The notes under the pieces were generated by a model that saw only the letters and a program-made list of their open reading frames with translations, did not search any database and was not told the origin of the DNA. Positions 1 through 58,705 of a stretch of 64,000 nucleotides of DNA are shown in pieces (the stretch's first letter is position 1; the number at the start of each line of letters is the position of its first letter). The DNA comes from Amoebophrya sp. A120 (lineage: Eukaryota; Protista; Dinoflagellata): the NCBI GenBank assembly GCA_905178155.1, contig CAJINV010000005.1:5458690-5522689 (forward strand). The letters are read 5' to 3'. Both the position numbers and the translations under genes were made by a program.

Positions 1-3000
1 TCCTCTTCGTTCGTCGAAACCACAAGACGGGAGAGTACGGAAAAAAACCACCAGGAGCACCAGACAACCTCAACCGCGCACGACACGAACGACGATTTCG
101 GCTGTGAGCACGGTGCCTGCGGTGATGAGGACTCTAGATACGCCAAGAGAAAACTGTTTGTTCACTGTAAAGTTTACAGTGAAAGAACCTGTAGTAATGC
201 AGAAAATGCATCGCTGAAGTGTTTGTCTTGCTGTGGACCCCCAGGATCAGGTAGACGAGGTCCCAGACCGAAGTGGTAGGCGCTTAGGGTGAACTATGTA
301 TGTAGGGCCCTTCCGTGCGGCCAATTTGTATGTCCCGCAACGGGGTTCGCCTATGTCGGTCATTTGTATGTGAGGCGATGGGTTACCCGGTCGGCAGAGC
401 CGATCCACAACGAACGAACGATACACATGCAAGACGAGTGATTTTTCGCGGCGTTTCCCCTTAAGATCCTCGCATGGCGAGTTTTCTTTGTAAAAATGTG
501 TAGCGAGCTTGTAATGCAAAACTTGCAATAAAATTCTATACAGTGAAACAGTTTTTTCTTACGATACTAGAGGCCCAGAGGCCACAGTCGACCTGCACTC
601 CGCCACGAAGCCCAGGATGCAGCCTGGAGGTCGGAAGAAAACTGCGGGGGGTCCTCCTATGGGAGTGTCAGGATCGAAATCGACAAAATCGAAAAACTTG
701 TAATGCATAAAATGCAGGGCACGCAAGGCCTGTGTTGGGGAGAAGGCAAATGAGACCGATAATTGCAAGCCTGTTTAGGGGAAGAAGACGCGTTGCCAGA
801 GAAGCATGACAGGAGCAGTGTTCTTTGCCCAAACAGCATGACAGACTGGATTTTGCAGCTCCCGAAATTTGTCATGCGCCACTTGGAAACTGAGGGCCCA
901 ACTGGTATCGATTTTATGCATCACAAATTTTTCGATGTTGTTGATTTCGATCCTGACACATCCATACCTCCCCGTGCAGATGAGGAGAATGGCGATGGAT
1001 GGTCGTGTACCATTTGTAAAAACGTCTCCACCTCTTCCCCAGAGTCAAGTAGACGGGAAATCTGCTAGACAAATCAGCATGCTTTGGCTGTTGCGCATGA
1101 CAAGTTCTTTGGGCGCGTAGTCGTGTGCTAGACGTCGCTTACGTTATTTCGCGCTAGTGCAGAAGCATCGCACATGCAGCATCTTACGCTGATTTGAGCA
1201 TCACAAATTCAGATTCCAAAAGAACGCGTACGAGTAGAATACTAAAACACTTCTACCACTACTCATGGGGCTTCGCATACGAAACATTTTGAGCATGCAG
1301 CTTTGCATGACAAGAACTCTGGGCACGACCACCTGGGGACATTTTTACACAGGATATCGTGTGACGACGACGACGACGACGATGGTGGAGAATCCGGACT
1401 GTGTATCCTGAGTAAAAGTGTCCCCATACCAGAGTCAAGATGGGAAATCTGCTAGACAATTCTCCAAGCTTTGGGAGTTTTGCATGACAAGTTTCCATCT
1501 GTAGTGTACTGCTGTTTAACAAGAGAAGCAGCATGAGAAAGCGAGCTTCTCATCCTGTTTACAGCATTACAAAGTCCAAAAAACGATTGGAAAGGCCTCT
1601 CATGGAGATGCGCATCACAAATCTTCCTCTCATTGCACATTTGCATGACAACTATGGGGTGGGGACGCTTTTACATACGATACTGTGCCCAGGCGGGTCC
1701 TCGTCCTCAACTCGCCCCGTCGAAGCGATGATGGCTCCGCCCGGTGGTCGTGAACAAGTTCTATCAAATGTAAAAATGTCTGGGTCTGGAACGATGCAAC
1801 TTGTGATGCGCATTTCACACCACACAAAAATCTGTCATGCATGCAAGCCAAAAGGTGCACATTTCCGGTCACCGAAAGAAGTGCTTTGTCATGCGGATGA
1901 CGCATTAGGAGACCTTCTCAAACAAAACCTGTCACGCTAGGGCGTGCATGGTAGACCTTCTGGGTCATGCCAAAGCTGCATCACATACCTCTGCATTTTT
2001 CCAGACCCAGACATTTTTACATTTGATAAGTTCAAGGAGGTGACGATCATGCTGGTGTTCTTACTCACCAGCGCGCGGCGCAGATGTCTTCCAACACGGG
2101 TCGTGGTCCTGCTGCGCGGGTGGTCACTGCGAATGCAAATGCGGGAGTAGGGGTGCAACAACTTGATTTCGACATTCCCGACCGAAATGGAGAGATCGTC
2201 GGCCACGCGACCATGGTCCCCGCTACCGGCGTCGTATCCGTGACGGCCACCCAGGGAAATACGGTGAGACAGTCTCCTATGGAACTGTCAAGATTGAAAT
2301 TGACAAAGTTGAAAAATTTGTGATGCATAAAACCGATCATACCAGTTGAGAGCCCCATTTCCAAGCGGTGCGTGACAAGTTTCTACGTCAGCGAAATCCA
2401 GTTTGTCTTGCTGTTTAGCGAAAGAAGGCATCCTTTGTCATGCTACTTTAGCAGCTCTATCTCAAACGACCCATTGCAGGCTCACAATCGGCCTCACTTG
2501 CAATCCCTGCAACGCAGTCACTTCGTGCCTTGCATTTTATGCATCTTCACAGATTATTTCAACTTTGTTAATTTCAATCCTGACACAACCATATCTCCGG
2601 GAGGACGGGCCGCAAACGGGCAGCAACTGCCCCCCGAAGTCTGGATCGAAACCAAGGATGGCGAATGGGTGTTTGTCAAAGCGCCGTACGTCTCTTACGA
2701 CCCGGTGACCGGGGAAGTACGAGTGCCCGACCCTACTGGTACAGCTGCAGCGACTGTGCCAACCTCTGCTCAGCAGCAGCTGTCCCGGGGAAGAAGAGGA
2801 CGACGAAATCTCGGGGGGAGACAAGATGAGCAAGAAGATCTATCCTGTGCAAAAGTATCGTACTAGTCGAAATTGCATTACAAATTTCCTCAGCATGAGA
2901 GATAAAATTTGTAATGCGGACTTACATTAAGGAAAAGAAAAAGATTTGTAATGCATGACTGCAATGCCTAGGACTACGAGTGCGATACTTTTGCACAGGA

Positions 3001-6000
3001 TGAGATCCCTTGGAAAACGATCCGCTGATGCAGCCCGATCCTGATTTGGATCTGCATGTTATCCTGAGTAAAAACGTACCCACACCAGAGTTGTAATGCA
3101 AATCTGCATGCTGAAAATGTTTCTCATGCGGAGCTCCATGAGAAGCATTTTCTAGTCGTGTTTTGCAATTTGTCATGCTCCAATCAGCATGGTATGCTAG
3201 ATCTGTGATGCTGCTGAGCTAGCTCAAACAGCACTACACTACGAATCCAAATTTGTCATACAAAACGGCCAAAGCTTGTGGATTTGTCTAGCCGATTCCC
3301 CATCTTGACTCTGGTGTGGGTACGTTTTTACTCAGGATACATGTTGGCGAGACGGGGAACTACAACAACTACCCCAATTATGGGCCGCCTCGTCCTCCCG
3401 CACCGCCCGCTTGGCAGCAGCAGCAGCAGCAGCAGCAGCGATACGGTTCTGTCGCTTATTCCAACCAGCACCTCGTGCTGGGCCAACCTGGCTTTCCCGC
3501 TGTTCTTGGTCCTGCTGTTGCAGGAGGAGCTCCGTGGGCGCCTGCTCCAGCTGCGCCGCAAGACCGAAACCGAGGGGGGTGGAACAACGACAAGAGCTGG
3601 TGGAAAGAGAACCACGGCAACCACGAGTGGAACGACGGCAACTGGGGGCGGAAAAACCACGGCGACGGGTGGAAGTACGACTACCGGGGGCGGAACAGCA
3701 AGTGGCGGCAGCCGCAGCAGCCACAGCAGCCGCCGCCGCAGCAGCAGCAGCAGCAGCTGTTGCGGCAGCAGCAGCAGGAGTTCCGGCGGGAGCAGCAGTT
3801 GTTGCAGCAGCAGCAGCAGCAGCAGCAGTTGTTGCGGCAGCCGCAGGAGTTGTGGCAGCAGCAGCAGCAGCAGCAGATGGAGCAGCAGCAGCAGGAGTTG
3901 TGGCAGCAGTTGCAGCAGTTGCAGGAGATGGTGCAGCATCAGCAGAAGGAGTTGTTGCAGCTGCGGCAGCAGCAGCCGCAGTGGCAGCAGCAGCAGCGGC
4001 AGCAGATGGAGCAGCAGTTGCAGCAGTTGCAGGAGATGTTGCAGCGGCAGCAGCAGGAGTTGTGGCAGCAGTGGCAGCAGCAGCCGCAGCAGCAGCCGCA
4101 GTGGCAGCAGCAGCAGCAGCAGATAGAGAAGCAGCAGCAGCAGTTGCAGCAGTTGCAGCAGTTGTTGCAGCGGCAGCAGCAGGAGTTGCGGCAGCAGTGG
4201 CAGCAGCGGGGTCCTCCTGCTCCTCAACAACGACCGCCAGATGACCTTCGTCCAGATGGCCATCCTCCTGCTCCTCGAACGCCGCCGGCCCCCGGCGTCC
4301 ACACGACCTACGAGTTGTCTTTCCCCCGTGAACTTCGCCCGGTCCACCCGGAAGAGGTTTTGGGTGAGGACTCTTTCCCCCCGCCGATATCCAGTGCAAA
4401 AGCATCTTCGCACTCCTGCTCGTCGTACTTCTAATCGCAGTTATGCATGACAGATCTATGACCACCTGAGGGAACAAGTAGTGGTCAGCATATAATAAAT
4501 TAACAAGCTCGACGTCCTGCGTTTCTTCCCTACGGAAAAATTTGTACTATTTTTGCGATTTCTACTATATACGATTACGATTATACTTTTGCAATGGATA
4601 GCCGATGTTGCCCGACAATGCAGACGACGCGGAGTTTATCCAGGAAAAAAACTGTGTAAGTGTAAGCTTCTTGGTGGAAGAGCATCGCAATTTTGCTCTG
4701 CACGACACAGAAAACCTCCTCCTGTCATGCGTAGCTAGTACGTGAAAACACGCACGAAAATTCAAATTGCCTCTGATGCATGTCCAGCATGACAAGTGTA
4801 ACAGTTTTGCATTTTCTGCAACGCAGAGTTACACTTACACAGTTTTTTTCTTCCATAGAGTTCGTCGGGGTGGTGTCCGTCGTGACGCAGGTGCTGGTTC
4901 TGACCCACGAGCTGCTGGAAAGCTACGAGGGGATTCGAAATTGGGATCCGCCACATCCTGGTATGTTGTCTCGAATTCAACAATTCATCGACGACAGTAC
5001 CTCCTCCACCTCCTGTCCGTATTTCAGCCAAGAGAATGCCCGGAAAGTGCGCAGCGGGCCCGCACAACCCAAACCGGAAGCCAAACCGGCCGCAAAACCG
5101 GGTGCAAAAGCCAGGAACCTGAGCAGCCTGTTGCTGTCTGGCCAGTTGATCTCGTCCCAGCTGTTTTTCATGAACGACTTGGACCAGGTCCGGGAGTGGC
5201 TGGTGGACTTCGACAAGTACATTCAGGAGGAAGTTTATCCTGAGAAAAAACTGTCTCAGTCTCAACTTGTAATGCGCAACTTCCTTGGGACAGTTTTTTG
5301 TCAACATGCTCGACATGCAAGAAAGAGAAAGTCGTCTTTGATCATATGTGTTTTCCGTTTTTGTGTTTGACGCATCACAGGTTTTCCGTGTCATGCTGAG
5401 CAAATTTGGGTTGCCGAGCCAGACAGTTTTTCTTGCGATAATGTTTTTATCGAGAAGATTGTTCTTGACGGACGAGAACAGCCAGCGAATGACCCTGGTG
5501 CCTTCTGGTCGCACAACGCGCTTCACAAGAGGATTTGCGAATATGCAGCTCACGATCCCCCTCATGGTGATGACTATTTCGAGGGGGGGGATATCACGTT
5601 GGGCCGCCCAGTTGTTGATGGAACGCCGCGAGCGCCGTGGTCGTGCTTTATCAAGCCTGAGGCCACGGCAGGGCCGAGCCGTGCGCCCGACGAGAAGCAA
5701 AAACGTGTAAAGCTGGAAAGGCACGCTGCGCTCTGCGGCGCGCAAAAACATTTGATCGAGCCGCTGCAGAAATTTCTCGGGTTGGGGCAAGCAGGTGTCA
5801 ATGGGGTGCCGTCGAGAGCACATGTGCCGTCGAGAGAAGAGCGAAGAGGAGACGACTTTGGGACGCAGTTCCACTTGCCCGAATGGGTTCTTCAACTACT
5901 GCAAGAAGGGAAGCAGAAGCTCGACGGAGCGAAACTGTGCAAAAGAGCTTACGTCAAGGACCCCCAGCATCCGACCAGCGACACCGCTGAGCCCATGTGC

Positions 6001-9000
6001 TCCGACGTTCTTCATACGCGGTCGTGCGAGATTTTGCGCGTAGACTTCTGTGAAAGAGTTGAGGATTCGGGTGGTGGCGGTGTTAGCGGACAATTGGGGG
6101 TGAATCCGAGGAAGTTTTCCGAACTGGGCTCGTCGCACCCAAACAACGGGAAACCTTGCTGCGAAAGGAGCGCAGCCGGCATCAACGTGTTCGAGCAGGG
6201 TTACTTCGAACAGATATCAAATGCAAATACGTCTGGGTCTGGAAGAATGCGACTTGTGATGCTGCATTTGGATTCCAAAAAAATCTGTATTGCATGAGCA
6301 GCAAAGGGAATGCGATCTCTGCTCCGTGGAGTGGGCATTTGTCATGCTGAGTAGGCATCTGCAAGATGCCCTAAAAAAATCTGTGATGCTACGGCATGCA
6401 TTACAGACATCATGGCCCATGCAAAATGTGCATGACAAGCTCCGACTCTTCCAGAGCCAGACTTTTTTGCGTTTGATAACAGAATCAAAAACCCTTACGC
6501 AAAATGCTTGGCGCGTCGAATGAGCACACGACGCGACTTCTCTCCGACTCGAACAAAGATTTTGGCGCAACGCACGAGTTATGGATTGCAAACGTGTCTT
6601 CATCTGCGTGGATCTCTGGAAACAACAAGGAAAACTACCTGTGAAGTAGTAGATCCTCTGTAAATAACCGGTTGGGGATGATTTTTGCAATGCTCGAAGG
6701 AGCCAACATGGCTGCTTTCTCGCATGACAAATTGAAAGGAACAAGCTAGAGCCCACCTATTGCTATTACAAGTTTGGCTTTATTTCTACTTCCAGATCCA
6801 GACATATTTGCAGTGCATACGAGTTGGCGCGGGAGTTGGTTCTCACGGAATTGCAGCTCGTCGAAACGTATGCATTGCAAAAGTATCGCACTCGTAGTAA
6901 TTGCAGTAGTTATGCTGCATTACAAATCTACATCCCAAGGTAAAACAGCATGACAAATTCCATTTGTCATGCTGAGGTAATTTGTAATGCAATCAAGTAC
7001 TGCTAGTACGACGTGCACGATGCTTTTGCAGTTCATAAAACTTATGCGTTGCAAAAGTTGTATCGCACAACTAAGACTAACATTTTAGCAGCACCAGAGA
7101 AGATCTGCGCATCACAAATTTGGTCAGCATGAACAATAGAATTTTCGTATGCTGGTTCTTAGCATACGAAGATTATAGGTCTGGTTTTTAGCGTACGAGA
7201 AAGAAAATCATACATGATTTTTACCATTACAGTTTGTTAGGAGTATGATACTTTTTTTGTACAGGATAAAGATCTGAACGCGGTGAGCGAGTTGGGACTT
7301 CGTGACGAAGCCGACCTCTTACGAGAATTCGGCCGAGAATTCGGCCTTCCGTATGGGAGTGTCAGGATTGAAATCGACAAATTTGAAACAATTTGCAATG
7401 CATAAAACGGATACCAGTTGGCCCCTAGTTTTCAAGTGGCGCATGACAAATTTGAGTAGAACCGAAATCCAGTCTGTCATGCTGTCTGGGTAAGGAAGGC
7501 GCCTTTTGTGATGCTACTTTAACAGCTCTATTTCTACAACCCCTCAACAGGCTTACAATCTGCCTGCCTTGCCTACTCTACAAGACAGGCATTTTGTGGG
7601 TTGCGTTTTATGCGTCGCCAACTATTTCAACTTTGACGAGTTCAATTATCCTGACGCTTCCATATTCCGGAACCAAGCCCGCGGCACACATACCAAAAGG
7701 TCCAGCAGATTTTGGCTCCGGAGCGGCAGCGGCTGCAGCACCTGCGGTGGCTGGTAGATTTGAATGACGTCGAGTTGTTGCGGAGGCAGAGCCCTATTCA
7801 ACCTCAACGGGGAGGTCCTCCGGTGCCTAATGCGGCAAGTAGATCACCTCCAACGCGAACGCCGCTCGACCAACTGAAGACTGCGATCATCGAGTTCCAG
7901 TTCAAACCAATCGTCGAGTTGCACACCTTATGAATCGCAAAAAGCAGATCGTCATCGTAAGTACTACTAATAGTATATTCATCATAGTGCGAAAATCATA
8001 TGCGCCGGCGCTGCAAATCTTTTTCCTAAGGTAAATCCGCACGGTTGCAGCAAAGTCCATTTCTCATGCTGATGAAGTTTGTAAGTAAATGCAATAGCAA
8101 TTGATGTTACTAGTAGTAGTACTAGTAGATACGATTACGATACTTTTGCAATGCATACACGTTTGCTCGCATCTACCTGGATCATGAACAACAGCCGGAC
8201 GCCGCCCAGCCGCCGGGTTCAACACCTTCGTCCCCTGGTGCTAGTGCAGCAACAGCAACAGCTGCATGGCAAATGTCTGAGGACATGAAAGTACAGGCGG
8301 AAAAAATAACCGAGGCCGTGAAAGGGGATCGCGCGTTTTGCCCCTTGTTGCCAGGGCGAAGGGAAGCTGACTACATGCCGAACCTGGTCCACTTCGAGAA
8401 GTGGAAGGTTTTCTACGCCGATTCTGTGCCTCGGGGTGTTTTGTCGCAGGTTCTTGAACGCATTCCCGAAGAGCAGAGGGAGACGCTTCGTAACCAGGTT
8501 AACGAGGCACGCAACAATCCCGATGAAAACCGTGATTTGATGTTCGGTCAACTTGACGCGTATGAGGGCCGCAGAAAAGCGCTGCGTGACGCGGAAACAA
8601 GTATCGTGACTGGTCCGCTTGAGTTTTTGCGAACCGCGATGTGCGAGTATTCCTATGGAGCGAAACGCGCCTTGCACCAGTACGACGCCAAACTTGTTGC
8701 TTTTGCGAACAAGCGTCATGGTCGGCATCCTGATTTGCCGCGGATCCAAAGCAGAACGGACCATTTTCTGGAGGCGAGTGGTACCCCCGTTTCCCGAGCT
8801 GGGGCTGCACCAGCAGGTGCAGCACCGCAAGCGGCTCCTGCAGGGGGATCTCGTGGAGGAGGAGGAGGAGGAAGTCGATCCCCCCAACAAGCACAATCGA
8901 GACCACAAGCGGCGCGTCGTTCCTCTTCTGCGCTGGAGCTCCCGCAGCAGAGCAATTCCCAAAACAGCATCTCGTCCGTATGGGAAGCTTCTCAAATGTT

Positions 9001-12000
9001 ACATTCTCAACTGTCACATGAGTTTGTGATGCAAAAATGACAAAAGTGAAAGGGGTGACCTTGCACGTCTCGCATGACCACAGATTTGCGTCAGAGATTC
9101 TCAGACTGTTTGGCTGTTCTAGAATTTGTCATGCGAAGCAGCTTGAAGATCGCGTCGATTCTGCTTGTAGTTTTGCATGACAAAAAATCATACAGCAGTT
9201 CAAGATGAAACATTTGAGAACCCCATAGTCCGCAGACGAGGACCACGGGTCTCCTACTACCTTCACTTCCATGCTGGAAACCATGACGAACAAAGAACTC
9301 TCGGACCTACTACAATGAAAAATGCCCCCACGACGACGACCCCGAAATTTGAAAAAGTGTCTCACGCATGAGATTTTCAAATGAACAAGAACTTTTTGTC
9401 TATGCATGAAAGGACTCCCGCGAGTCTTTCTGGTGCAGAACCGAGATGCCTGCGTAAGGTACCTTCTGGACCATAACAGACCCGGCTCCTGTTGTTGGGC
9501 TCCTTTGCAGCACAGATTTGCGCTATTCATCAACAGGGAGATGACTTTGTGACGCTGATACAAGCAAGGCGGGGAATTTTTCCATTGGAAAGGTTTGCAC
9601 ACACAAACGCTGCCAAGTTCTCGGGTGGGGGCATTTTTCATCGTAATACGCCGCTGATGTTGAGGCCGCCCGGGTGGTCTTTGATGAAGCTGAAGCTGGT
9701 GAAGTTGAGGCCGCCCACGTGGCCTCTGGTGAAGCTGAAGGTGCTGGTGAAGTTGAGGCCCGCGTGGCCTCTGGTGAAGCTGAAGGTGCTGAAGATATCC
9801 TGAGCAAAAACGTCGTCCCCACCTCAGACTCAAGATGAGAAATCTGCTGGAAGATGAGAATAAATTTTTGACCAGTTCGTGGTCAACAGGGTCGTGAAGA
9901 CGTTGTGTCGAAGATGACAGGTTCTTTGGCCTCGTAGTCGTCTAAATGCTAATGCTGTTTAGATAGTTCAGAAGCGTCTTCACAGATCTAGATCTACTAC
10001 GTAAAGCATATTGAAAAGTAATCCTTTTATGCTGATAATTCGAGCAAGACAAATGCAAATCCCCAAAGTACTAGAGCTGCATCAGACATAAATGCTCCTC
10101 ATAAAGCTCGTCCGCATGAGAAATCAATTTTCTGCATGACGAGAACTCTGGGCTCGACGTTTTTACTGAGGATAGTTCTTATCGGCGACGAGGGCGACGA
10201 CGACGAAGATATCAAAAAGAAAAAGCCCCCCTCCCCATATCGGAAACGAAATTTGTGATGCTGTATATGAGTACACAAGAAATCGACTTGTATTGCTAGA
10301 AGGCCAAGAGACGCAGTTGTGGCCTGAATTGCAGGCAATTTTTCATGCTGTTTCCCACTTCCAGTTGCCTCGTGTCATGCTGGAGATGCAATACTTCCCT
10401 ACGCTAGGTAGCACTACAGTCCGCATCTACTTTTGCCTTCTAGCATCACAAAGCTGATTTGCGACCACAAATCTGCATCACAAATGTCCATTTTGATATA
10501 ATGGGGGGGATTTTTGTTCTTGATAGACGACGAGAGAAGTTCTTTGGCCGTCACCATCGGAGAGGAGGGAAGCACCAGCACGGTCTATCAAATACAAATA
10601 TCGAAGATCTGGGCCTAGATGAAGATTTTTGCAGGGAGGTTTGTTGATGTCATGCGCAGACCGTCGCTTTCCATGCCGCCCATGACTGAAGTCTGAAATG
10701 CTGCAGGGCTTTGTTCTAGCGTGACAGATTAAGTACAACGTGAGTAGTTCTTTCTCTCATGCCTGTTCTGCTTCTGCATGACGTGCATGACCACGAGAAA
10801 AACCCTGCTTTATCACCTTGAGACCAAAATTTGGCAAGAACTCTTGGAGGCAACCATGCAACGTTAGATTTTTGTGTGACCACCACCGACCCCCATGATT
10901 AAGCACATCAATCAATCAAACCAGGAGCATTATGCATCATTTTAATATTTTAGACCCAGACACAATTCTTGCAATGCATACGGGCCTGCTGGAAACCGAA
11001 GATCCCGCGACGAACAAAATTGCTCCGGCTGAAGATGCAGCGGTAGTATCCTGTGCAAAAGTAATATGATCGTACTCGTAGTAATTGCAGTCATGCATTA
11101 CAAATCTCGTTCCCAAGGCAAATAAGCATGACAAATTCCAGTTGTCGCGCTGAGCAAATTTGTAATGCAATTATTATGACTAGTACGGTAGTACTTTTGC
11201 AATTCACATGCCGCGGCTGCAGCGCCCACGACAACTACGCGGAAGAGAAACCTTATGGAACTGTCAGGACTGAAATTGACAAAGTTGAAATAATTTGTAA
11301 TGCAGAAAATGCATGACGCGAGGTACGTGTGTTGCAGAGCAGGCAAGTGAGGCCGATTGTAAGCCTGTTTGGGGTTAGGGCTCGAGATGCTAAGGTAGCG
11401 TGAGAGAATCAGTCTTCTTTGCCTAAACAGCACGACAAACTGGATTTTAGGACCGCCAAAATTTGTCATGCGCTACTTGGAAACTGGGTTCCAACTGGCA
11501 TCCATTTTATGCATGACAAATTATTTCAACTTTGTCAATTTCAAACCTGACGCTTCCATAAACCTGAAATTCCTCGAGCGCGTGGCGCCGCAAGAAAAGA
11601 AGACGGCGGAGAAGGATATCCCAAGGAAAAACGTCCTCAACTACTTCAAGTTTATTGGGTTGTCGAGCATGACAAGTTCTAGTACGTGCTATTGACTTTC
11701 GGCTCGTAGTGGTCTAATAATCCTCTTGCTTCAGCTAGTAGTCGTGCAATCGCAGTAAAAAGTGACTACCTTAACCTTACTCTGATTGTTCTAGCATGAC
11801 AAAGAACTACTCCACCTCCCAGACTGGATTTTTAGAAATAAATGGCTTTCATGCAGCTGGGACTGCGCATCAGAAACGTTTTAATTATGCTTGCGGGTTT
11901 ACAACGTGACGAGAACCCTGGGGAGGTGGGGACATTTTTACTCAGGATTCCAGCGGAAGCGGAAGGACAAGAAAACGAGGGGAGCCAGAGCCAGGAGCAG

Positions 12001-12335
12001 CCCGCCAAGTATGGATTGCAAAAATGTCTGGGTCTGGAAGATTGCTAGGTTTGTCATGCACGTTTTGCGTGACGCGTGAGTGTCTGTGATGCATGACCTA
12101 GCATCACAGACAACTTTTAGAGGCTCTCCTAAATCAGGATGAGAAATGCTCTCTCCGTCTAACACAAAGAAATGGACTCGCTCTTCTTGTTGGTCATGCA
12201 ATACAGATTCTTTTGGAATTCAAAGACAGCATTACAAGTTGCAACCTTGTTCCCGACCCAGACACTTTTGCAATGCATACCAAGCCGGCGAAAACAACGG
12301 AGCGAAAGTTCCTGGCCCCCCGAGGTGAGGAATAG
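1..12335 (+). CDS. Large multi-exon hypothetical protein (5'-truncated; poly-Q, Pro/Gly-rich), interrupted by 26 introner-type elements
   Basis: Exon ORFs 3340-4387, 4858-5235, 5441-6214 and 8158-8978. The frame joins when element + one DR is removed (e.g. ...PPMLPDNADDAEFVGVVSV...). Last exon reads AKPAKTTERKFLAPRGEE-TAG (12333-12335). Not every junction was checked. Confidence 0.7.
139..566. mobile_element. Introner family A (enlarged copy)
   Basis: TIR CAAGAGAAAACTGTTT..CACTGTA / TACAGTGAAACAGTTTTTTCTTACGATA; DR degenerate. Confidence 0.75.
658..966. mobile_element. Introner family B
   Basis: TIR TATGGGAGTGTCAGGATCGAAATC / GATTTCGATCCTGACACATCCATA; DR CCTCC. Confidence 0.92.
1008..1356. 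mobile_element. Introner family D
   Basis: TIR ..TGTAAAAACGTC / GACATTTTTACACAGGATA; DR TCGTG. Confidence 0.85.
1404..1682. mobile_element. Introner family D
   Basis: TIR TATCCTGAGTAAAAGTGTCCCCA / TGGGGACGCTTTTACATACGATA; DR CTGTG. Confidence 0.9.
1762..2028. mobile_element. Introner family E
   Basis: Perfect TIR TATCAAATGTAAAAATGTCTGGGTCTGGAA; DR AGTTC. Confidence 0.93.
2278..2593. mobile_element. Introner family B (opposite orientation to 658 copy)
   Basis: TIR TATGGAACTGTCAAGATTGAAATT / AATTTCAATCCTGACACAACCATA; DR TCTCC. Confidence 0.9.
2841..3002. mobile_element. Introner family C
   Basis: TIR TATCCTGTGCAAAAGTATCG / CGATACTTTTGCACAGGATG; DR AGATC. Confidence 0.92.
3060..3339. mobile_element. 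Introner family D
   Basis: Perfect TIR TATCCTGAGTAAAAACGTACCCACACCAGAGT; DR CATGT. Confidence 0.93.
3708..4207 (+). repeat. Coding CAG-rich repeat (poly-Gln with ELWQQ/LQQLQEM units)
   Basis: Imperfect (CAG)n array inside exon 3340-4387. Confidence 0.9.
4388..4600. mobile_element. Introner family C
   Basis: TIR TATCCAGTGCAAAAG / CTTTTGCAATGGATA; DR GCCGA. Confidence 0.88.
4637..4857. mobile_element. Introner family F
   Basis: TIR GAAAAAAACTGTGTAAGTGTAA / TTACACTTACACAGTTTTTTTC; DR GAGTT. Confidence 0.9.
5236..5440. mobile_element. Introner, A-like
   Basis: TIR TATCCTGAGAAAAAACTGTCT / AGACAGTTTTTCTTGCGATA; DR AAGTT/ATGTT. Confidence 0.85.
6215..6478. mobile_element. Introner family E
   Basis: TIR TATCAAATGCAAA..GTCTGGGTCTGGAAGA; DR ACAGA. 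Confidence 0.9.
6580..6819. mobile_element. Introner family E (divergent)
   Basis: TIR TATGGATTGCAAAC / CCAGACATATTTGCAGTGCATA; DR CGAGT. Confidence 0.85.
6869..7037. mobile_element. Introner family C
   Basis: TIR TATGCATTGCAAAAGTATCG / CGATGCTTTTGCAGTTCATA; DR AAACG/AAACT. Confidence 0.85.
7043..7268. mobile_element. Introner family C (divergent, abuts previous copy)
   Basis: TIR TATGCGTTGCAAAAG / GATACTTTTTTTGTACAGGATA; DR degenerate. Confidence 0.75.
7352..7664. mobile_element. Introner family B
   Basis: TIR TATGGGAGTGTCAGGAT / ATCCTGACGCTTCCATA; DR TTCCG. Confidence 0.9.
7929..8157. mobile_element. Introner family C (divergent)
   Basis: TIR TATGAATCGCAAAAAG / GATACTTTTGCAATGCATA; DR CACCT/CACGT. 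Confidence 0.8.
8979..9227. mobile_element. Introner family G
   Basis: TIR TATGGG..TTCTCAAATGTT / AACATTTGAGAACCCCATA; DR GTCCG. Confidence 0.9.
9308..9648. mobile_element. Introner, H-like
   Basis: TIR TACTACAATGAAAAATGCCCCCAC / GTGGGGGCATTTTTCATCGTAATA; DR degenerate. Confidence 0.82.
9796..10174. mobile_element. Introner family D (divergent)
   Basis: TIR TATCCTGAGCAAAAACGTCG / CGACGTTTTTACTGAGGATA; DR not conserved. Confidence 0.78.
10210..10525. mobile_element. Introner family H
   Basis: TIR TATCAAAAAGAAAAAGCCCCCC / GGGGGGGATTTTTGTTCTTGATA; DR GAAGA/GACGA. Confidence 0.85.
10586..10980. mobile_element. Introner family E (divergent, long)
   Basis: TATCAAATACAAA..TCTGGGCCTAG / AGACCCAGACAC..TTGCAATGCATA; DR CGGTC/CGGGC. 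Confidence 0.8.
11047..11210. mobile_element. Introner family C
   Basis: TIR TATCCTGTGCAAAAGTA / TACTTTTGCAATTCACATG; right end approximate. Confidence 0.78.
11254..11560. mobile_element. Introner family B
   Basis: TIR TATGGAACTGTCAGG..TGAAATTGACAAAGTTGAAATAA; DR AACCT. Confidence 0.92.
11617..11949. mobile_element. Introner family D (divergent)
   Basis: TATCCCAAGGAAAAACGTCC / GGGACATTTTTACTCAGGATT; DR not conserved. Confidence 0.72.
12010..12279. mobile_element. Introner family E
   Basis: TIR TATGGATTGCAAAAATGTCTGGGTC / GACCCAGACACTTTTGCAATGCATA; DR CCAAG. Confidence 0.9.
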
Positions 12336-16758: not shown

Positions 16759-16906
16759 ACTACTTCCAGTAGTTGAAACCTTGTTTCCACAACCTGCCAC
16801 AACCTGCAAAAGAACTTCTCGTTGGCGACACGCTCGCACATCCACTACTTCGCATTTTCGACCAAGACTTCTAGTCTAGTTGAAAGTGCACCACCCAAGA
16901 ACAAGC

Positions 16907-22585: not shown

Positions 22586-23109
22586 AAACACAACTAGTAC
22601 TTACTCATACAAGTATCATGTAGTAAAACAAACTAAAAGGCGTTTTCAGGCGCATTTAGGAACAACTTGTCATGCTCGAGTAACTTTATGTATCCTTCGA
22701 GAACAACGAGAAGTAAAAAAGCTCGTGCCGCAAAAACAAAAAGTGTGCTGCGACGACACGTGCTAACAAATGGTCCTTGGTCTACCTGCAATAAACCAAG
22801 CAACTTTCGGCTGTGTTCGTTGTGCAGAACTTCTCACGAACACCATGACTACATCACAGCGCTTGAAAGATTCGTCGCTTCGCGGACCACGCAAGTAGAA
22901 AAGCTGTTTGTAAAAAATCAATAGCATCACCCTATCGCGACAAGAACGCCGGGCTGGGGTGGACGTTCTTTTTATGCAGGATACGGCCCGTCCTGCAGTT
23001 TTGGCAGCCAGCAGCTCAAACCTCCGACACCGGCACGTGGAAGGAGGAAGACCGTGCAGATCAGGCCGCTGCGATCCGCGCTCTTGACACGGGCGCTCGG
23101 CTGTCCGAA

Positions 23110-23505
23110 GTGGAGCTGAATGCTGCGTCGACGGCATTGGGGGCGGTTTGTTTTGCTAACTTGGAGAAAATGGAGGTTTTTGCGAGTGATCGGGAGAACA
23201 TTTTTTTTTCGCTCCGGTGGAAGCCTCCATTTGTCTTCGGCAAGGTGGGACTCACTATCGAACAAGCAGAAAAACTCGCAGCGGACAAGCAAGCAACAAT
23301 CCACGCACTCCGCCTGGCAAACATCGAGCAGGAAAAAAAAGTGCAGGAAGCGAAGAAAAGCCAGGAGGCGGCTGAAGCAGCGGGCATCACTGGCAGCACT
23401 GCGGCTCAGCGCGCGAGGGAACAAGCGCGCCAAGCAATCAGCGCAAAAGAGGCCGCGGGGCGTCGCGTTCAAGCTACCCCCTTGGAAACATCTCTGGCGC
23501 TCTAA
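23110..23505 (+). CDS. Hypothetical coiled-coil protein (intronless ORF; first ATG at 23170)
   Basis: 131-aa ORF with an E/Q/A/K-rich helical stretch (EQAEKLAADKQ...EQEKKVQEAKK). Confidence 0.4.
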   Translation: MELNAASTALGAVCFANLEKMEVFASDRENIFFSLRWKPPFVFGKVGLTIEQAEKLAADKQATIHALRLANIEQEKKVQEAKKSQEAAEAAGITGSTAAQRAREQARQAISAKEAAGRRVQATPLETSLAL

Positions 23506-42787: not shown

Positions 42788-45414
42788 GTGCCAATGGATG
42801 GTGGAAAATAAATTCTAGAACTTCTAAAGAGCGCAAAAACTACAAAGTGCGAAAGGAGGATGGAAGAACCAACTGTAGTTGAAAATAGAAGTTGATGTCC
42901 TCAAGAAGAACAATGGTTTCAGTTTCAGATTATAATGGCCCGCCAGGTCCGTGAGGAACTTACTACAACTAGAGAGGGCAAGAACTTCTACGTACTTACT
43001 TACAGTTACAGCGAGTAGTTCTACTAGTTGGAGGATATCTTTATCTTCAGAATTTCATGCTGCTTTCTTCTTCTCCAGGACCAGGACCATTAAGATTGAC
43101 CAAGTTTGGTTATCAGTCCTGGTCCAGCAGAGACGAAGAGGAAGCAGGACTGAATCATGGCACTTCGCTGCGCCAAAAAAAAGCTTGTTTTTCTACTGAA
43201 GAGAAGATCAACATCAACCAGCAAGAACTTCTTGAAGAAAACTTTGATTGCGCGTGCTTTTTTAGAAGGGATGGAATAAGCGGAAAGGTAGTAAACTGGT
43301 GAAAAAAAAGATAAAAAGAAGCAGAGCAGGGCCGCGGTCCATCTAGTGGTGGAACGACCGCTAGTCTTGTTTCCGGCCAAGAACAAGCCTCTAGTTCTGC
43401 TGAGCAGGCAAAGGTTCGGGGTCGCGTGGTAAATAATAACAAGGTGTTCAACTACATCTTGATCTTCGTGGCGCTCCCAGACGTCGCAGAACGACATCTG
43501 TCTTGTGGTCGTTGTGTAGGTTTACTTTCGGTCCGTCCTCGTGTTGAACTTCTAAAAGTCGTGGTCGTGATTGAATGAGTAATACTTATTTCCGAGACGC
43601 AGCGGCAGCTGCTCCTGGCGATTAATATATGAATGGGCAAAATAGAAATACAAAAAGGCCTCAATAAAGATTTTTCTAAAATCAGAAAAACGCACAACCT
43701 GCCACGAATACGAGACAACTACCCAGCACGAATCAGGGCACGCCCTCAGACGAACTGCAGCCCCCTGCTGCCCATGAAAAAAGGACGAGAACCGTCTTCG
43801 CCCCCTCTGTCGGCCACAAATAAAGGCCTGGGCGCGGCGGGCGAAGATGGTGGTCGCCGCAGAGTAGGAGCGCGAAAGCAATTTATTACCGCACACAGCA
43901 CTGCGCCGCAAAGAAAGAAAAAAGTTTTTCCGCAATAAATAAAGCATGAAGAACATCAAGGCAGCGCGAGCTTCGTTGAGAAAGCCGAAAGATAGATTTC
44001 TCTCCCGACGGCCCACTCTCTTCGAACGCAATTTCTCTCCACCAGGGCCAGCTGGGCTTGTTGGGGAAGGAGTTGCCGCGTCTGGTGGCGCGGCTCAATA
44101 CAGTTTGGAACATCTTCTTCTGGGGGCGCTCAATACTGTATACCTATACTGTTTCTCGTCGTCCCACATCTATTATCACAAGGAATGCCCAAAGGATATT
44201 GCGAGATCAGTTTATATTAGGAGGAAAAACTTCTCCTGACTGAAGATCTCAGAATTATCAACATGGAGGACCCATTTTTCTATTGGTAGCTACTTAAGTA
44301 CCCTTGTGCGCCGACGTAGCATTAGTATGAAAGAAAAGCAAGAGGAAGGAAGATCTCACCTAGTTTCAACTTTCGTGCGATCTCCTCGTCGTATTTATTC
44401 TTGGCCTTTTTTTAGACTAGAGCGTGCCTGTCGTGTTTGGTCATCTGCAGGTAGGTACTACGTGTACGACAGCGATACGTCCGATCTATTAGACAACCCT
44501 CCTTGTTACACCAGCTACTAGCAGCAACGAGCCCGAAGTTGTTGTTTTTGTGTTTCATCTCTCGATCAACATACCAGGAAAGGAGCCATATTAACGCGGC
44601 CAACCAGCAGAGATCAAAAATTCGGAAGATGATCTACATGTGCAGCTTCTGTAGTTGGTTTCAGCACGACGCGGGTGGTTCAATAGGTTGTGAAGCTGGC
44701 TTTTTTTTTATTTCTTCATCCTGTTACGCATGTTGTGGAATTCGAATTTCAGGGCGACGCGCCGTTTGAAATATTGTTTCAAATTTTCTAATTCTAACTT
44801 GCTATCTTGCATGTATAAAATCTTAATTCTTGTTGTTTTTTTTTCTGGCACACGACATATTTGGCCAACTTCTGCATAAGCATGATGTAGATGTTGACCA
44901 AAAGAGCCGTAAATAAAATATCAAGTTTCACCCGCCTTCTCGCTTCCTGTAGCTCTTTTAGTGTGTCTATTAGTCCTAATGAGATGATCTTTTTGTTCGT
45001 CAGACCGACTCGGACGACGACCATGAGTTGCAAGTAGATCCTTTCCCTGTGAACGTTGGTTTTTGGCGTAGTAATTGTATTCAAGAGCTGTTTATAGTTT
45101 TTCGAATACCACATTTTGCGAACACGATAAAAGTTGCACACACCGAAGGTCAATGTTTCGAACTTATTTTTTCACTTCGGAATAATGTTTGTCGTGATTC
45201 AAGAACATATTCGTCATCGTATTTCCCCGTTTGAAGATGATGTCTCGACTGCATAATTAAGCTCTACAACTTCTATTTGGTGTTGGTCGGAACAAAGGGG
45301 AGATTTTTTGTTGCTTGTTTACGCACAACAGTTCAGCAACTACTACAGCCCCCGCTTTTATAATTTCATCGATCCTAGATGCGTTTGTAGCACCGCTACC
45401 GCAAGAGGAAGAAG

Positions 45415-48400
45415 ATGCTGAAAAGCTGCAAGAGGAACTCATCACGAGGACCTCTTCTTCGCGACGGGCAGCTCCGACGCGGCCGAGTGGGTTCTTGTGG
45501 TCGAAGGAAGATGCAGGAAAATTGTAGGCTTACAAAAGAAGAAGTCGACGACCACGTGGCGGAGGCGGACAACTACAACATGGACATCGAAAAAGCTGCA
45601 AGGGCGCCGACGAGCTGCACCAGCTGGGAAATAAGCGACCAGCTTCTGCAGCTGAAGATGCTCCTGTCAAGAAAAAAGAAAAGAGCACGACGTATTCTTT
45701 CACGACCTGCTCATGCTGGTCTTGCTCAGATGAAGACCGTCCGTCGACCACAAGTACTACAGCTTCGTCCAGGATCAATGTCCTTATGGTCCCCGCGACT
45801 TGGAAAGAGGATGCGGCAGCAGGTGTTGAGGACAAATCGTCGTGTGAGGGGACCACAAAATCTTCCCAACAAAATTGTATTACACACTCACTACTGCACG
45901 AGCCGCAGGGGCGGGGCGTCGAATGATAGAGCAAAGTCAAAGAGAGGGAGAGCTGTCCGCATCAAAACATCGGCGGAGGTGGAGCTTCGTGGTGGATCTG
46001 CGTTGACCTCGAGAAATGAAATTGCGCACGCCCCAGCAGCGAGAGGGGCGGCCCAGCAACACCAACAGCAATGGCATGTAGATGAATCTTCAAGAACAGA
46101 CAGAGACGGAGACCATACTGTTACTGGCCGCGGCCCATCAAGAAGATCAGCATCTGATCTGGATCTTCGCGCAAGTAGAAGCGCAGAAAGAGCGACTTCC
46201 AGGCGAGAGCAGGACGACGATCTGGCGTGCTTGCAACGGCCGACGTCAAGGCGCTCATCTTCAACATCATCGTTAAAGCCCTCTGCCGAAGAAGTTCTTT
46301 TATCGGACGAACGAAAAATGGACAAAAACTTCAGAACCTTCTACACAGACAGCGCTTGTTTCAACGAACGAGTTTTTCGCATTCCATGTCTACCACAACG
46401 TGGTCTGCTTCACGAAGAACCATGTACTAGAAGAAGTTCGGTTCTCTCAAGAACTTCTCGACAGCCGCGAAGAGGAAGCAGGACAAGGAATAGAAAAATA
46501 AATGCAGGCTCTACTACTACTCAATTCTCAACTCCTACCCGCTCTCTCCTCTCGTACGTGCTGGCACTAGCCGCTGGATCGGCTTCGGTGTTCACGCCCG
46601 GAAGTGGACTAGTGACCGCCTTCCGCCCTTCGTTGCGGACAGCAGGAGGGGGCCGTAGGGCGACGAACACTACCTCTGCCGGCGAGGACAACAGCACCGC
46701 AGGGGTCGTGGCCGCAGAGCACCAGGATCATGATGATGCGGAAGGGCGCCGCCCGCCTCCTGCAGGTGACGTTCCGATGCCCGCCGCTGGTGGTGCAGCT
46801 GCATCAGGGGAAGCTGGTGCAGCAGCAGAAGCAGCTGCTGCGACGCCTCCGGAGGCGGTCGCGTGTTCCGGAGAAGCTGCAGGAGCCCAGGGGACGGGTA
46901 GGACTTTTGGGATTCGAGCTGGTAGTGCAACTACTACCTCCGAGATCAGTAGAATTCCGTACGCCCAACGGCTGTATTACCACCACGCGAAAGCTATGGA
47001 GCGAAGAGTTGACGACTTGCTGACTGCCTTCTCCGAGAAGGATCATCCGTTGCCGGGGTTTGTCGCATCGTTGGGACTGATATCCAGGAAAAAACACCCA
47101 TCTCCATCCAATTTGTCACGCAAGACATGCATAAGGTCCACTATTTGCCATGCAAAAAATGGATGGGGATGGGTGTTTTTTCCTGGATAACTGATTGCAG
47201 CCGGAACTACGGCCGATCGTGGTTCCACGGCAGGGTCAACATCTGCTACTGCAGGAGCTACTTGTACTAGTTCTTCGCAACGAGGAGCAGGCGCTTGTGT
47301 TACTGCTAGTTCTACGGTCGGCCCTGCTTCTCTCAACGGGAAGAACGGCGGCGCGAGCAGCGTCCACGAACAGCAGAAGCAAGCACCTGGTGGAGAACCA
47401 GGAAGTATGGCCGCAGGTTCTCCCGCCACCACGGTCACCACTTGGACGCAGGCCATTGCGGACGAGCGAGCGCGCAAACACGCGGAGAGCAAGGATTCGG
47501 TGTCCTACAAGTCACGATTCGAACTGGCGAAGAGACAATACGTATCAAAGTGAAAAATCCTCCCTCCCCATATCAAGACGAAATTTCTGGTGCTGGATCT
47601 GCGTGCACAAATGACGTCTGTCTTGCAGTATAGGACTGCAGCCAGATGCTTAGCCTGTTTAGGAGTGTAGGTGTCTAGCTGTTTAGCATCAGAAACGCCT
47701 GCCCTGTAGGCCCACCAGCATGAGAAACCGCATCCACAATGCAGCGCACACAACGGCGCTTGCCTTCTTGCAAGACAGAGCTGATGTGTGACCACAAATC
47801 TGTATTACAAATTTTCAGAGAGTGATGGCATTCGCATTTTAATATGGGGAGGGGGCATTTTTCCTCACGATAATACGAGGAAACGCTTTTCAAGGGCTTC
47901 AAAAATGTCTTATCAGTGCATGAGGAGGCGGCGAGAACTTCTCCGGGACAAGAAGCCGGCTCTTGTGACGATGGTGCAGACAACATAACACGAACTACAT
48001 CAGGAGGAAAATATTCTCCAGCAGCAGCGGAAGGAGGTGCAACTGACAGGCTTAGTGAAGAAGATGCCGTGAAGATGTCGTGTGCCGGCGCAAGTAGTGC
48101 TTCGGCGTCCTATCAACCGACGTCTCTTGCTGATTTTGTCATCAAAGACATCACTATGGAGGCCCGGCGACAGGCAAAGAACCTGAAGGGCGGCGGCGAC
48201 GAGGATGAAAAAAAATCTTCTATTCCGGTCGTAGTTCAACCTCTTGCGCGGACCACTCTTGACCACACAGACGCAATTGCCGACCGTCTTGGGTCGATGT
48301 TCTTCCTCACGTTGCAAATGCAGAAGGTTCTGGTCGGGCAGATCTCGTACGAAATCCACAACATTGTCGACAGGCCCGCTTTATCAAATGCACACGTGTC

Positions 48401-51400
48401 TGGGTCTGGGAGATAATTGCGAGACTTGTCATGCTAGTCTGGCATGACCCTGAGCTCTGTATTGCGTGGCCGCGATGAGCTCCTGTTGCCTGTCATGCAA
48501 AAACACAGTTTCTCATGCGGAGTACGCAACTTAGAACCATGGCAAAACTTGTCATGCTGGGCAGCGCGTCACAGTGGTTTTGCTATTTCCTTCCTTGCAT
48601 CACAACTTTCGAGACCCAGACATATTTGCAATGCATACGCCCAGTATTGGCAGCCGGACTACGCGCACAACCAGATGCTGGCTATATCACAAGGAAAAGT
48701 GTTAACGTTAACGGAATTTGTGATGCAGTATATGCATCAGAAAAGTTTCCCAGATTTGTACTGCGTAGCATGCATGGAAGGCAAAACTTGTAATGCGTGA
48801 CTGCCATCTGCGGAAACCGTTATTAACGTTAACATTTTTTTGTTTGATAGGCCACCGCAGGAGTGCAGAAAAGTCGCCTTCCCGAACCGAAAGCCGCAGC
48901 TGCGATGAAGAAGATGAAGCGAGGTAGAGATACAACGTTACATCAAGGAGGAGCTGCACCAGCTGCAGCTTCGGCTACGCTTGCTGGACCTGGCAAGGTC
49001 AAGAAGTCTTCACAGGAGGTGTCTGAATTAGAGGACGAGCAAGATGAGAACAGTTACGAGACACTGGCGCTGCTGGATTACAACGCGGATATCAACTGCA
49101 AAAGTATCGTAGTAGTAGTAATTGCACTAGCTGTTATCCGTGTGACCGCAGTATTTGTACTTGAGCGCAGCCGTGCCGCTTGCTGTAGCAAGGGCCACAG
49201 ACTCTAGAGCAGGGGAAGGGGGTGAGGGGCAAAGGAGGGAAAGGGGAAGGGAGCGAGCGGGGAAGGGGAACACGGAGGGGAGGGTGGAAGCCGGAAGGGG
49301 GGGATGCAGCCGGGGAGGAGGTGCCAAATAGAAGGAGAGAAAGCAGCAAGAACGGGCGAAAAGGAAAGGGCGAAGAGGGGCAAGGAGATGGAGACAGGGA
49401 AAAAGGCTGGAAAAGCAGGGGGAACAGCAGGCGAAAACGGGGGGAAATGCGATAAAAGGCGGCCCTACCGGGGAGGGAACAGGAATCAGGCGGCGGTGCT
49501 TGGATTCCGTGGGGTTTGTGCCTAAAGGGCACGGGAGAGTCCCGGGAGAAAGGTGGCTCCTGACCTGGAGTTTCCAGGCGTTTTCCGGTAAAATAAAAAG
49601 GCTAAGTGCGGCGTGCTGCTTCACAGGCGGCGGCTGCCGATGGAAAATCCGTGCTCAACAGGAGGAGATGGTGTTTTGGATCCCCGACCCGGGCTCGGGT
49701 CCCCCTTCCTCGCGAAGGGGCCGCGGGGTCTTGCCTTCGGGAGGTGAGGTCCCCCCCGCGCCCCCCCCCTCCCCGGACCCCGGGGATCCCCCCCCCCTCC
49801 CCNCCTCGAGGGGGGGTCCCCTCCCCCGGACCCCGGGGGTCCCCCCCCCTCCCCCTCCCCTGATAATTCACGCTGCTCTTTTCGTATAGTATAGGAATTA
49901 CGAATTCGCGTAGCATATACAAATAATATTTGTATATGCTGTTTCACCTTACGAAAGTCATGCATAAATGCGATTAGTACGAGTGCGATACTTTTGTACT
50001 GCATAGCGGAGCTGCGGCTGCAATTTCAGAAAGACCTGAACGACGTGCGGAAGATGAAACTACAAGCAGGAAGTATGATAAACATCGGAGAAGAAACTTC
50101 TCTTGCTGGTGAAGGAAATGCAAATACTGGAAGTAGTCCAACAACTTCTGGCACAACTCCGCCAGCAACGAGACGGCGCAAATCCAAAAAATCCGCTCCA
50201 CCTTCCGGGGCGGACCACCACGAACTGGCAACTCGGCCCGCTGGCTCCGGCACTGGAAGTTCTGGGGCGAAACTGATTGAAGATAAGGATGCGGAAATCA
50301 AGCGTCTGCTTGAAGTTGAACCTGGTGAAGTTGCGCGGGAATACGGTCTATGCATTGCAAATATCGATCTGGGTCTGGAAGAGTGCAACTTGTGATGCTG
50401 TTTTTGGATTGTAAAACGCTCTGTATTTTTGCATGACTAGCCAGGAGGAGTCCAGTAGTTTGTGTTACGCGGAGAGGGTATTTCTCATGCGGAAATGGCA
50501 TGAGAAAGCCCTCCAAACATCTGTGATGCTAGATCATGCATTACAGGCATCACTGGTCATGCAAATTATGCATGACAAACCTGGTAATTTTCCAGACCCA
50601 GACCTAATTGCATTTGATACGGCCTCGAGTTCGTCAACCCGCTGTTTGAATTATCCTGTGCAAAAGCATCGTACTCGTATTGCAGTCATGCATTACAAAT
50701 TTTCTTGTCAAGTCAAATCCGCATTACAAATTTTATTTCCCATGCTAAGGAGATTTGTAATGCATTTATACGAGTACGATACTTTTGCAATGCATATGAA
50801 TCGGACCGACTTCTTTTATGCAGACTGCAAAAGTAACATCGTACTCGTACTAGTAATTGCTGTTATGCATGACAAATTCATCCTTACTAGGGTAAAACAG
50901 CATTACAGATTTGATTTGTAATGCTATTAAGGAAATTTGTAATGCAATTATTACTAGGACTAGTACTAGTCCGATGGCACTTTTGCAATGCATATCTTTT
51001 CCTTCGTGGCGACTTTGCGGATTTCAAACTCCAAGAGGAGACGCAACTCCTGGTAGAGGCCGCGCAGCACAGGGTCCTTTATCAAAATGAAAAATCCCCC
51101 CACCCCACACTCAAACTAGAAATTTGTGATGCAGATTTGTGCCCACAAATCAGCTTTGGCATGCTAGAAGGGAAAAGATGCGCCCTGTAGTACTTGTTGG
51201 CGTGGGAATAAACCTTTGCGTCTTCAACATAACAGAAAACAACTAAAAGTGGGAAACAGCATGACAAATTGCCTGCAAACGCGGCCACAGCTGCGTCTCT
51301 TGGCGTTCTAGCATTACAAGTCGACTTGTGTACTCAGATACAGCATTACAAATTTCGTTTTCGATATGGGGAGGGGGGATTTTCCCTTTTGATATCCTTC

Positions 51401-58391: not shown

Positions 58392-58705
58392 TAACATTGA
58401 CATTGACATACTTTTTCAAGTAATTTTCATCTACTTAGACTGGCGTCTATTTTGGAATAGAAACTTGTGGTCCTCCTGTTGATGTACTTGATGTTTTGAG
58501 ACGGCAAAATCCATAGTGCCAAGTTTCTGTCATGTTTCGTTTGATTTGGAAAAATATAGCAATCGATGAAATATGCGCGTTAATAGCGTTTCTTGAAAAC
58601 AACAAATGATACCGACCACGGCGCATATTTTGTATTTTCAAGAAGAATTTCAATTCACACACAAAACAATAAAACAGCACCACGCGCAACAAGGGAGAGC
58701 AGAAG

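What the first reader, a model, noticed from the sequence alone, without database searches (positions are those of the whole stretch)
658..2593. Removal appears independent of element orientation
Seen: the same family occurs in both orientations inside one + strand gene: B at 658 vs 2278 and C at 50652 vs 53335. It also occurs in both orientations elsewhere (E 38783 vs 60057, D 25384 vs 60780). Established: spliceosomal introns need strand-specific donor, branch and acceptor signals. Inference: recognition is symmetric, either by an RNA hairpin from the TIRs or at the DNA level.
Basis: partly seen in the sequence, partly recalled or inferred. Interest (0 to 1): 0.7.

Follow-up and report, generated by a model that had tools for sequence, protein, structure and literature searches.

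The report
Transposon introns spliced either way round
In the marine parasite Amoebophrya A120, already published mini-transposon introns are missing from likely-RNA contigs whichever way round they lie, and every informative junction fits one cut one base before and four bases after their mirror-image ends, so they are likely removed from the RNA by a loosened splicing machine that reads those ends instead of GT-AG.

Summary
Observation confirmed: all four named pairs are opposite-orientation copies. All 8 families in the window occur both ways. The DNA is Amoebophrya A120; the elements are its published TAT...ATA introners (PMC7789003). One likely-RNA contig lacks family B copies of both orientations (7352, 11254), each with exactly 5 extra nt. 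In 10 of 10 copies with diverged flanking repeats the junction fits one register, 1 nt before TAT and 4 nt after ATA, polar to the transcript. Likely-DNA contigs keep the elements. So removal is orientation-independent and likely at RNA level; DNA-level excision is unlikely. Need for a hairpin is not shown: 5 of 21 removed copies lack a predicted terminal stem. Removal of copy 658 and of the C pair is inferred, not seen. The fixed register was not in the papers I searched, but this scan found it before on other DNA of this genome.

The parts
658..966 (.). Family B introner, orientation F; TAT...ATA ends, perfect 5-nt TSD. Removal inferred, junction not displayed
   Evidence: 3 stops and a frameshift if retained; in-frame cryptic GT..AG alternatives exist nearby
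2278..2593 (.). Family B introner, orientation R; skipped with one TSD copy
   Evidence: X1 pieces 2028-2272 and 2594-2835 are adjacent in the record, 1396/1397; no in-frame G[TC]..AG alternative nearby
7352..7664 (.). Family B introner, orientation R; skipped
   Evidence: joint 7346>7665
11254..11560 (.). Family B introner, orientation F (as 658); skipped in the same contig as 7352
   Evidence: joint 11247>11560; orientation
1..12335 (+). Host gene 1: one ORF of at least 1660 aa after removing 26 elements plus 5 nt each; runs off the window start; no Pfam family at cut-off in the exons scanned
   Evidence: residues 1-454 of public A120 protein CAD7951267.1 match 4605-7321 of this model
6869..7268 (.). 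Two back-to-back elements (6869-7037 family 0 R; 7043-7268 family-0-like F, weak assignment) sharing one target site; skipped together
   Evidence: joint 6867>7273, no ambiguity; compatible registers; orientation
9796..10174 (.). Family D (3) introner whose TSD has decayed at 4 of 5 positions; fixes the cut exactly at 9794/9795 and 10178/10179
   Evidence: joint 9794>10179, both=0; only k=4 fits
6215..6478 (.). Family E (1) introner, orientation F; absent from the same contig as 12010 by record arithmetic
   Evidence: also spanned by P0001
12010..12279 (.). Family E (1) introner, orientation R; skipped
   Evidence: joint 12004>12280
50652..50796 (.). Family C (0) introner, orientation R, in host gene 2; no RNA laid here; retention would be in frame with no stop
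53335..53504 (.). Family C (0) introner, orientation F, in host gene 2; no RNA laid here
45391..57295 (+). Host gene 2: ORF of 2137 aa (stop to stop) after removing 18 elements plus 5 nt each

Best explanation
These are MITE-type introners of Amoebophrya A120 that are missing from likely-RNA contigs in either orientation at one fixed, transcript-polar register (N|TAT ... ATA-NNNN|), and they are likely removed from pre-mRNA by the cell's relaxed U2-type spliceosome reading signals in the terminal inverted repeats. Shown: both orientations occur; element plus exactly 5 nt is skipped; the register is -1/+4; the first and last two intron bases are free; likely-DNA contigs keep the elements. Inferred: a transposase inserts the element either way with a 5-bp duplication. 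Because the two ends are mirror images, the transcript always meets U at +2 and A at +3 (a donor without the G), and an A at -7 followed by 6 nt (a candidate branch point with a fixed distance to the 3' cut). The long terminal stem probably helps bring the ends together but is not predicted to be essential. Orientation independence follows from the inverted repeats and needs no strand-blind machine.
For:: 12 of 13 listed joints belong to one 3557-nt contig and cover 13 elements; all 13 single-element joints (11, 2) skip element +5 nt; k=4 is the only register common to 10 of 10 copies with diverged TSDs, and the mirror register k=1 is excluded in 9 of 10. Family 0 copies of both orientations give k>=4 (7929 and 11047 R; 7043 F, weakly assigned). 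X4 contigs span whole elements (4198-4659, 7584-8159, 9123-10255, 10436-11098, 11525-12032); end variants are polar. In 287 gene-oriented copies, the first T varies 1 time at the 5' end against 8 at its 3' mirror, and the third position 11 against 2 (Fisher p=0.0015; p=0.04 in the 222 outside copies alone, after first noticing it in the window); 5 of 21 copies with RNA support have predicted terminal-triplet pairing under 0.1. PMC7789003 section 10: 83 of 89 spliceosomal proteins and U2, U4, U5, U6 found in A120.
Against: No lariat, branch point or spliceosome dependence was observed. The 3' end has no general YUNAY-like consensus, so the -7 A is only a candidate. U1 snRNA was not detected in A120 (PMC7789003 section 10). 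Most copies are predicted to form a terminal stem (z -8.9 and -7.4 for 658 and 2278; 16 of 21), and the geometry resembles Euglena introns, for which a separate machinery is proposed. The end asymmetry rests on 25 variant ends among 287 copies, and includes one 5' AAT, three changes at +3 and two at -7. X1 is only guessed to be RNA, is one sample, and as contigs shows neither strand nor splicing efficiency. A mutational-drift test of the register on genomic TSDs was null (34 vs 37).
Confidence: 0.55

Rival explanations
1. RNA-level removal that needs the inverted-repeat hairpin: a non-spliceosomal or much-altered machine measures 1 nt and 4 nt from the paired TAT/ATA stem base, as proposed for Euglena nonconventional introns.
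For: Long predicted stems in both orientations. Fixed spacers around a complementary triplet parallel Euglena N3-CDG...CH'G-N5-6 (PMC12501133 abstract, sections 7 and 12). Free terminal dinucleotides. U1 not detected (PMC7789003).
Against: 5 of 21 removed copies lack a predicted terminal stem (prediction only). No excess of G.U over A.C in arms (103 vs 109 at positions 4-10; 6 vs 11 at 1-3). No compensatory triplet change in 222 copies, but no copy had both triplets altered, so this is uninformative. No sense-over-antisense folding advantage in 90 copies. Mirror positions are constrained unequally.
Confidence: 0.33
2. Programmed DNA-level excision, as for ciliate IESs; X1 would then be DNA of an excised genome.
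For: X1 is labelled 'RNA? (a guess: may be DNA)'. Elements look like DNA transposons.
Against: X4 contigs and the window keep the elements. The cut is polar to the gene whatever the element's orientation, which a symmetric transposase-type cut would not give. PMC7789003 defines these introns from RNA-seq against the genome.
Confidence: 0.04
3. One orientation is retained or uses cryptic canonical GT-AG sites.
For: 658 and 53335 have in-frame G[TC]..AG alternatives nearby and their junctions were not seen; 50652 could be retained in frame without a stop. Families 1 and 4 are skewed in the outside loci (61/35, 4/14).
Against: All 15 elements with a displayed joint, of both orientations, fit the same non-canonical rule. 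11254, oriented like 658, is skipped cleanly. All 8 families occur both ways inside long ORFs.
Confidence: 0.04
4. The skips are reverse-transcriptase template switches across hairpins flanked by direct repeats.
For: Hairpin plus direct repeat is the classic setting for this artefact (own knowledge).
Against: Joints with 0-1 nt of shared sequence are skipped at the same register (9794>10179 both=0; four more with both=1). 26 of 26 elements in gene 1 carry in-frame stops if retained.
Confidence: 0.02

Closest known systems
Introner elements (IEs) / non-canonical introns of Amoebophrya sp. A120 (Farhat et al. 2021, PMC7789003; read: abstract, passages, sections 10, 11, 12, 16, text of the supplement; figures not visible)
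   Same: Same organism. IR starts TAT, seven looser bases, then at least three A; 3-5 nt direct repeats at the borders; repeated families; removed from RNA without GT-AG.
   Different: The paper calls splice sites variable relative to the hairpin and the border unknown; here one -1/+4 register fits all informative junctions. 'strand' and 'antisense' do not occur in the text searched, and 'orientation' only for genes.
Either-orientation introners of Polarella glacialis and Aureococcus anophagefferens (Roy et al. preprint 10.1101/2020.10.14.339549; read: passages; the Aureococcus paper was not held and is cited only through this one)
   Same: [quoted passage not shown]
   Different: They carry or recruit GT/GC/GA and AG from the element or a biased TSD. 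Here the TSD shows no base preference and both borders are free.
Euglena nonconventional introns (Nomura et al. 2025, PMC12501133; read: abstract, passages, sections 7 and 12)
   Same: MITE-like inverted ends, free border dinucleotides, a complementary triplet at fixed spacers from the cuts, longer spacer on the 3' side.
   Different: Motif CDG/CH'G with spacers 3 and 5-6 and a purine at the exon start; here TAT/ATA with spacers 1 and 4 and no purine rule.
Fritillaria borealis non-canonical introns (as reviewed in PMC11282704, section 6 read)
   Same: MITE-derived TIR/TSD introns removed by an adapted U2 spliceosome.
   Different: Preferred AG-AC/AG-AT borders and a TAC target; none here.

Membership tests
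Amoebophrya A120 introner elements | Genome is A120 | tested here: met
   Exon 5446-6213 is 100% identical to CAD7951267.1, Amoebophrya sp. A120
Amoebophrya A120 introner elements | IR begins TAT, then seven bases, then at least three A | tested here: met
   A at positions 11-13 in 248, 254 and 280 of 287 oriented 5' ends
Amoebophrya A120 introner elements | 3-5 nt direct repeat overlapping the exon/intron border | tested here: met
   5-nt TSD, perfect in 50 of 82 window elements (32 listed as mismatched); cut lies inside it
Amoebophrya A120 introner elements | Repeated, absent from transcripts, non GT-AG | tested here: met
   X1 is likely RNA, not on record as RNA
Canonical U2 spliceosomal intron | GT/GC donor and AG acceptor | tested here: not met
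   0 of 26 in gene 1, 7 of 222 in outside loci are GT-AG at the mapped cut
Canonical U2 spliceosomal intron | Conserved U at intron +2 | tested here: met
   T in 286 of 287 oriented copies; detection favoured TAT ends
Canonical U2 spliceosomal intron | Lariat branched at an adenosine; dependence on U2/U6/Prp8 | not testable with these tools
   no raw reads covered the gene (X6, X7)
Euglena nonconventional intron | CDG...CH'G motif and purine at exon start | tested here: not met
   motif is TAT/ATA; first exon base A24 C17 G19 T22 of 82
Euglena nonconventional intron | End pairing required; excised as a circle | tested here: inconclusive
   stems predicted for 16 of 21 removed copies; circles not testable
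Ciliate-type IES (DNA elimination) | Element removed from DNA | tested here: not met
   X4 contigs span whole elements; other life stages not examined
MITE | Cognate autonomous transposase | not tested
   no genome held; PMC7789003 section 16 reports none found in A120

The most novel reading that the evidence does not exclude
A120 has a second, non-spliceosomal mRNA splicing route, convergent with Euglena's, that treats any TAT...ATA inverted-repeat element as an intron by measuring 1 and 4 nt from the stem base. Tens of thousands of transposons could then insert at any coding site, either way round, at no cost.
Probability: 0.3. Interest if true: 0.85.

Novelty: already known. Interest (0 to 1): 0.45.

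Why it matters
The elements are published, but how A120 splices them is an open question. A fixed, transcript-polar register that holds in both orientations turns 'variable splice sites' into one code with predictions: a branch at -7 if spliceosomal, a need for end pairing if Euglena-like. It makes DNA-level removal unlikely. It explains why the invasion is unconstrained by target sequence or direction. It also fixes gene models: the public protein for this locus leaves the frame near the 7352 element.

Tried and rejected
No whole genome is held. No listed holder is on record as RNA. A word-index protein search with exon 2033-2275 found nothing. Pfam on 15 exon pieces gave one hit below cut-off, so host gene function is unknown. 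The frame test alone cannot tell +5 from +2 or +8 nt; +5 comes from the contigs. Depth bins do not decide 658 (13.3 observed, 4.2 expected from exons, with repeat cross-mapping). Indirectly, no long X1 piece over 658 was listed among the longest pieces, but that table is cut. G.U versus A.C test: null. AT-drift test of TSD copies: null. Sense versus antisense folding: null. Stop-codon test over 45 mismatched TSDs in outside loci broke the ORF at k=0 (2), k=1 (1), k=5 (1) and never at k=2-4: consistent but weak. One joint (7595>11278, depth 514) links two B copies and was set aside as a repeat contig. One joint (11247>11560) can also be read as CT..AC, the minus-strand canonical pattern; taken as chance because the ORF and the annotated protein are on +. 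The Aureococcus paper (PMC5684705) was not held. Supplementary figures S19-S25 of PMC7789003 are pictures I could not see and may show border positions.

Full report
Observation. The window is dense with short elements that begin TAT, end ATA, have inverted ends of about 25-50 nt and sit between 5-nt direct repeats. My final list has 84, built by scans and some pairing by eye. Clustering 80 elements under 700 nt gave 8 families with 68 members, every family in both orientations, with 0 of 236 links in conflict; 12 were singletons.

Host genes and organism. Removing each element plus 5 nt joins 26 elements' flanks into one + ORF of 1660 aa (1-12332), and 18 into one of 2137 aa (45391-57292). 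All 26 elements of gene 1 carry in-frame stops if retained. Five families occur in both orientations inside gene 1. An exon of gene 1 is 100% identical to a public protein of Amoebophrya sp. A120. That protein matches my spliced model over residues 1-454, across elements 4637 (F) and 5236 (R) of one family. The elements fit the A120 introners of Farhat et al. 2021 (PMC7789003, sections 10, 11, 16).

Is removal orientation-independent? Run X1 (contigs, guessed to be RNA) holds exons with no other letters in the listed pieces and skips elements. In one search two X1 records place 2272 next to 2594 and 5232 next to 5443. Record coordinates match the element+5 model at 5 of 5 checkpoints in one record, and at 9 of 9 in the other up to one constant offset from where my index started. 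In one search, 12 of 13 listed joints belong to one 3557-nt contig and skip 13 elements; five bins inside elements have depth 0. B copies 7352 (R) and 11254 (F) are both skipped in that contig; 11254 lies like 658, and 7352 like 2278. Family E copies 6215 (F, by arithmetic) and 12010 (R, by joint) are absent from the same contig. In all, 15 elements have a displayed joint, 4 more follow by arithmetic, 2 by a piece edge; 658 and four others in gene 1 were not displayed. No RNA was laid on gene 2. Likely-DNA contigs of run X4 run through whole elements.

Where is the cut? Perfect repeats leave the cut ambiguous, but 10 copies with RNA support have diverged repeats. Writing k for the number of repeat bases kept from the upstream copy, the ranges are 2-6, <=4, >=4, 4-6, 3-4, 4, 3-5, 4-5, 4-5 and 3-4. 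Only k=4 is common: the intron starts 1 nt before TAT and ends 4 nt after ATA. The mirror register (k=1) is excluded in 9 of 10. In gene 2, k=5 at 48382 gives a stop. So the borders are N-T at the 5' end and any dinucleotide at the 3' end: 0 of 26 in gene 1 are GT-AG, and the repeat has no base preference. Clean skips with 0-1 nt of shared sequence argue against template-switch artefacts.

More copies. They hold 404 distinct elements; 222 could be oriented by a codon model plus ORF length, and no locus had mixed calls; 182 were dropped as uncalled. Of the 222, 203 were assigned to families, and all 8 families occur in both orientations relative to the gene (20/17, 61/35, 6/4, 11/12, 4/14, 4/1, 7/3, 3/1). 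Two are skewed at uncorrected p 0.01 and 0.03, and the loci were picked with a family 1 motif.

Mechanism. But inverted ends present the same terminal sequence in either orientation, so orientation cannot separate linear signals from a hairpin. Polarity can. The cut follows the transcript, not the element, and likely-DNA contigs keep the elements, so removal is likely on RNA. End variants are also polar: the first T (intron +2) varies in 1 of 287 5' ends against 8 at its mirror, and the third base in 11 against 2 (p=0.0015 pooled; 0.04 in outside loci alone). This suggests U at +2 and A at -7 matter as linear signals, as a G-less donor and a candidate branch point would. Both named copies fold into long stems, but 5 of 21 removed copies have no predicted terminal stem. 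Tests for selection on pairing were null, as was a drift test of the register. I put a relaxed U2 spliceosome at 0.55, a hairpin-measuring Euglena-like route at 0.33, and DNA excision, orientation-specific cryptic sites and artefact at 0.10 together. No branch point or machine was observed.

What is known. The elements, their hairpin model and the missing U1 are published (PMC7789003). Either-orientation introners are published for Polarella and Aureococcus (10.1101/2020.10.14.339549, passages), and an introner survey allowed for opposite-orientation copies in its method (PMC9860276, passages). PMC12130899 (passages) describes diverse A120 introners, and those passages do not treat splice register. 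Euglena has a fixed-spacer code around a complementary triplet (PMC12501133). Seven searches and a text search of the Farhat supplement showed no statement of orientation independence or of a fixed register for A120; subscription papers and figure images were not visible. This scan's own unreviewed notes report the same -1/+4 register, one of them in either orientation, on other pieces of this genome; I had reached it before that call.

Verdict. A real and correctly seen property of a known system. The inference is half right: removal ignores orientation, but recognition is polar and likely at RNA level, and a spliceosome is not excluded. Novelty: already known. Interest 0.45, for the testable splice code.

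Noticed in passing
window 6864-7273: Two related elements in opposite orientation share one target site, leaving three copies of the 5-mer. At the common register the exon between them is 0 nt, and all three mismatches among the copies fall in intron positions. Recursive splicing or removal as one unit cannot be told apart.
   Followed up: partly
window 7321-7665: The public protein CAD7951267.1 leaves the frame here and ends at 484 aa, while the X1 contig joins 7346>7665 and stays in the 1660-aa frame; the annotation likely misplaces this intron near a short tandem repeat.
   Followed up: partly
window 49090-50005 and 55881-56951: Introner shells of about 0.9 and 1.1 kb with family-0-like ends and long unrelated interiors; 56003-56538 is an 88-90% inverted copy of 37384-37907. 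Possibly a second mobile element nested in introners.
   Followed up: no
window 1762-2028 (run X6): Raw RNA reads of X6 match these element ends but continue into sequence from another locus, so one family E copy is present in RNA there (retained or untranslated).
   Followed up: no
window 50624-50650 and 50801-50815: Predicted micro-exons of 27 and 15 nt between consecutive introners in gene 2.
   Followed up: no
window 16880-23502 and 58673-62901: Two more + ORFs (657 and 940 aa) appear after removing elements plus 5 nt; all four introner-rich genes are co-oriented.
   Followed up: partly
window 3700-4200 and 34117-34404: Glutamine-rich CAG-type repeats; the two X1 contigs of gene 1 appear to break at the first one.
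   Followed up: no
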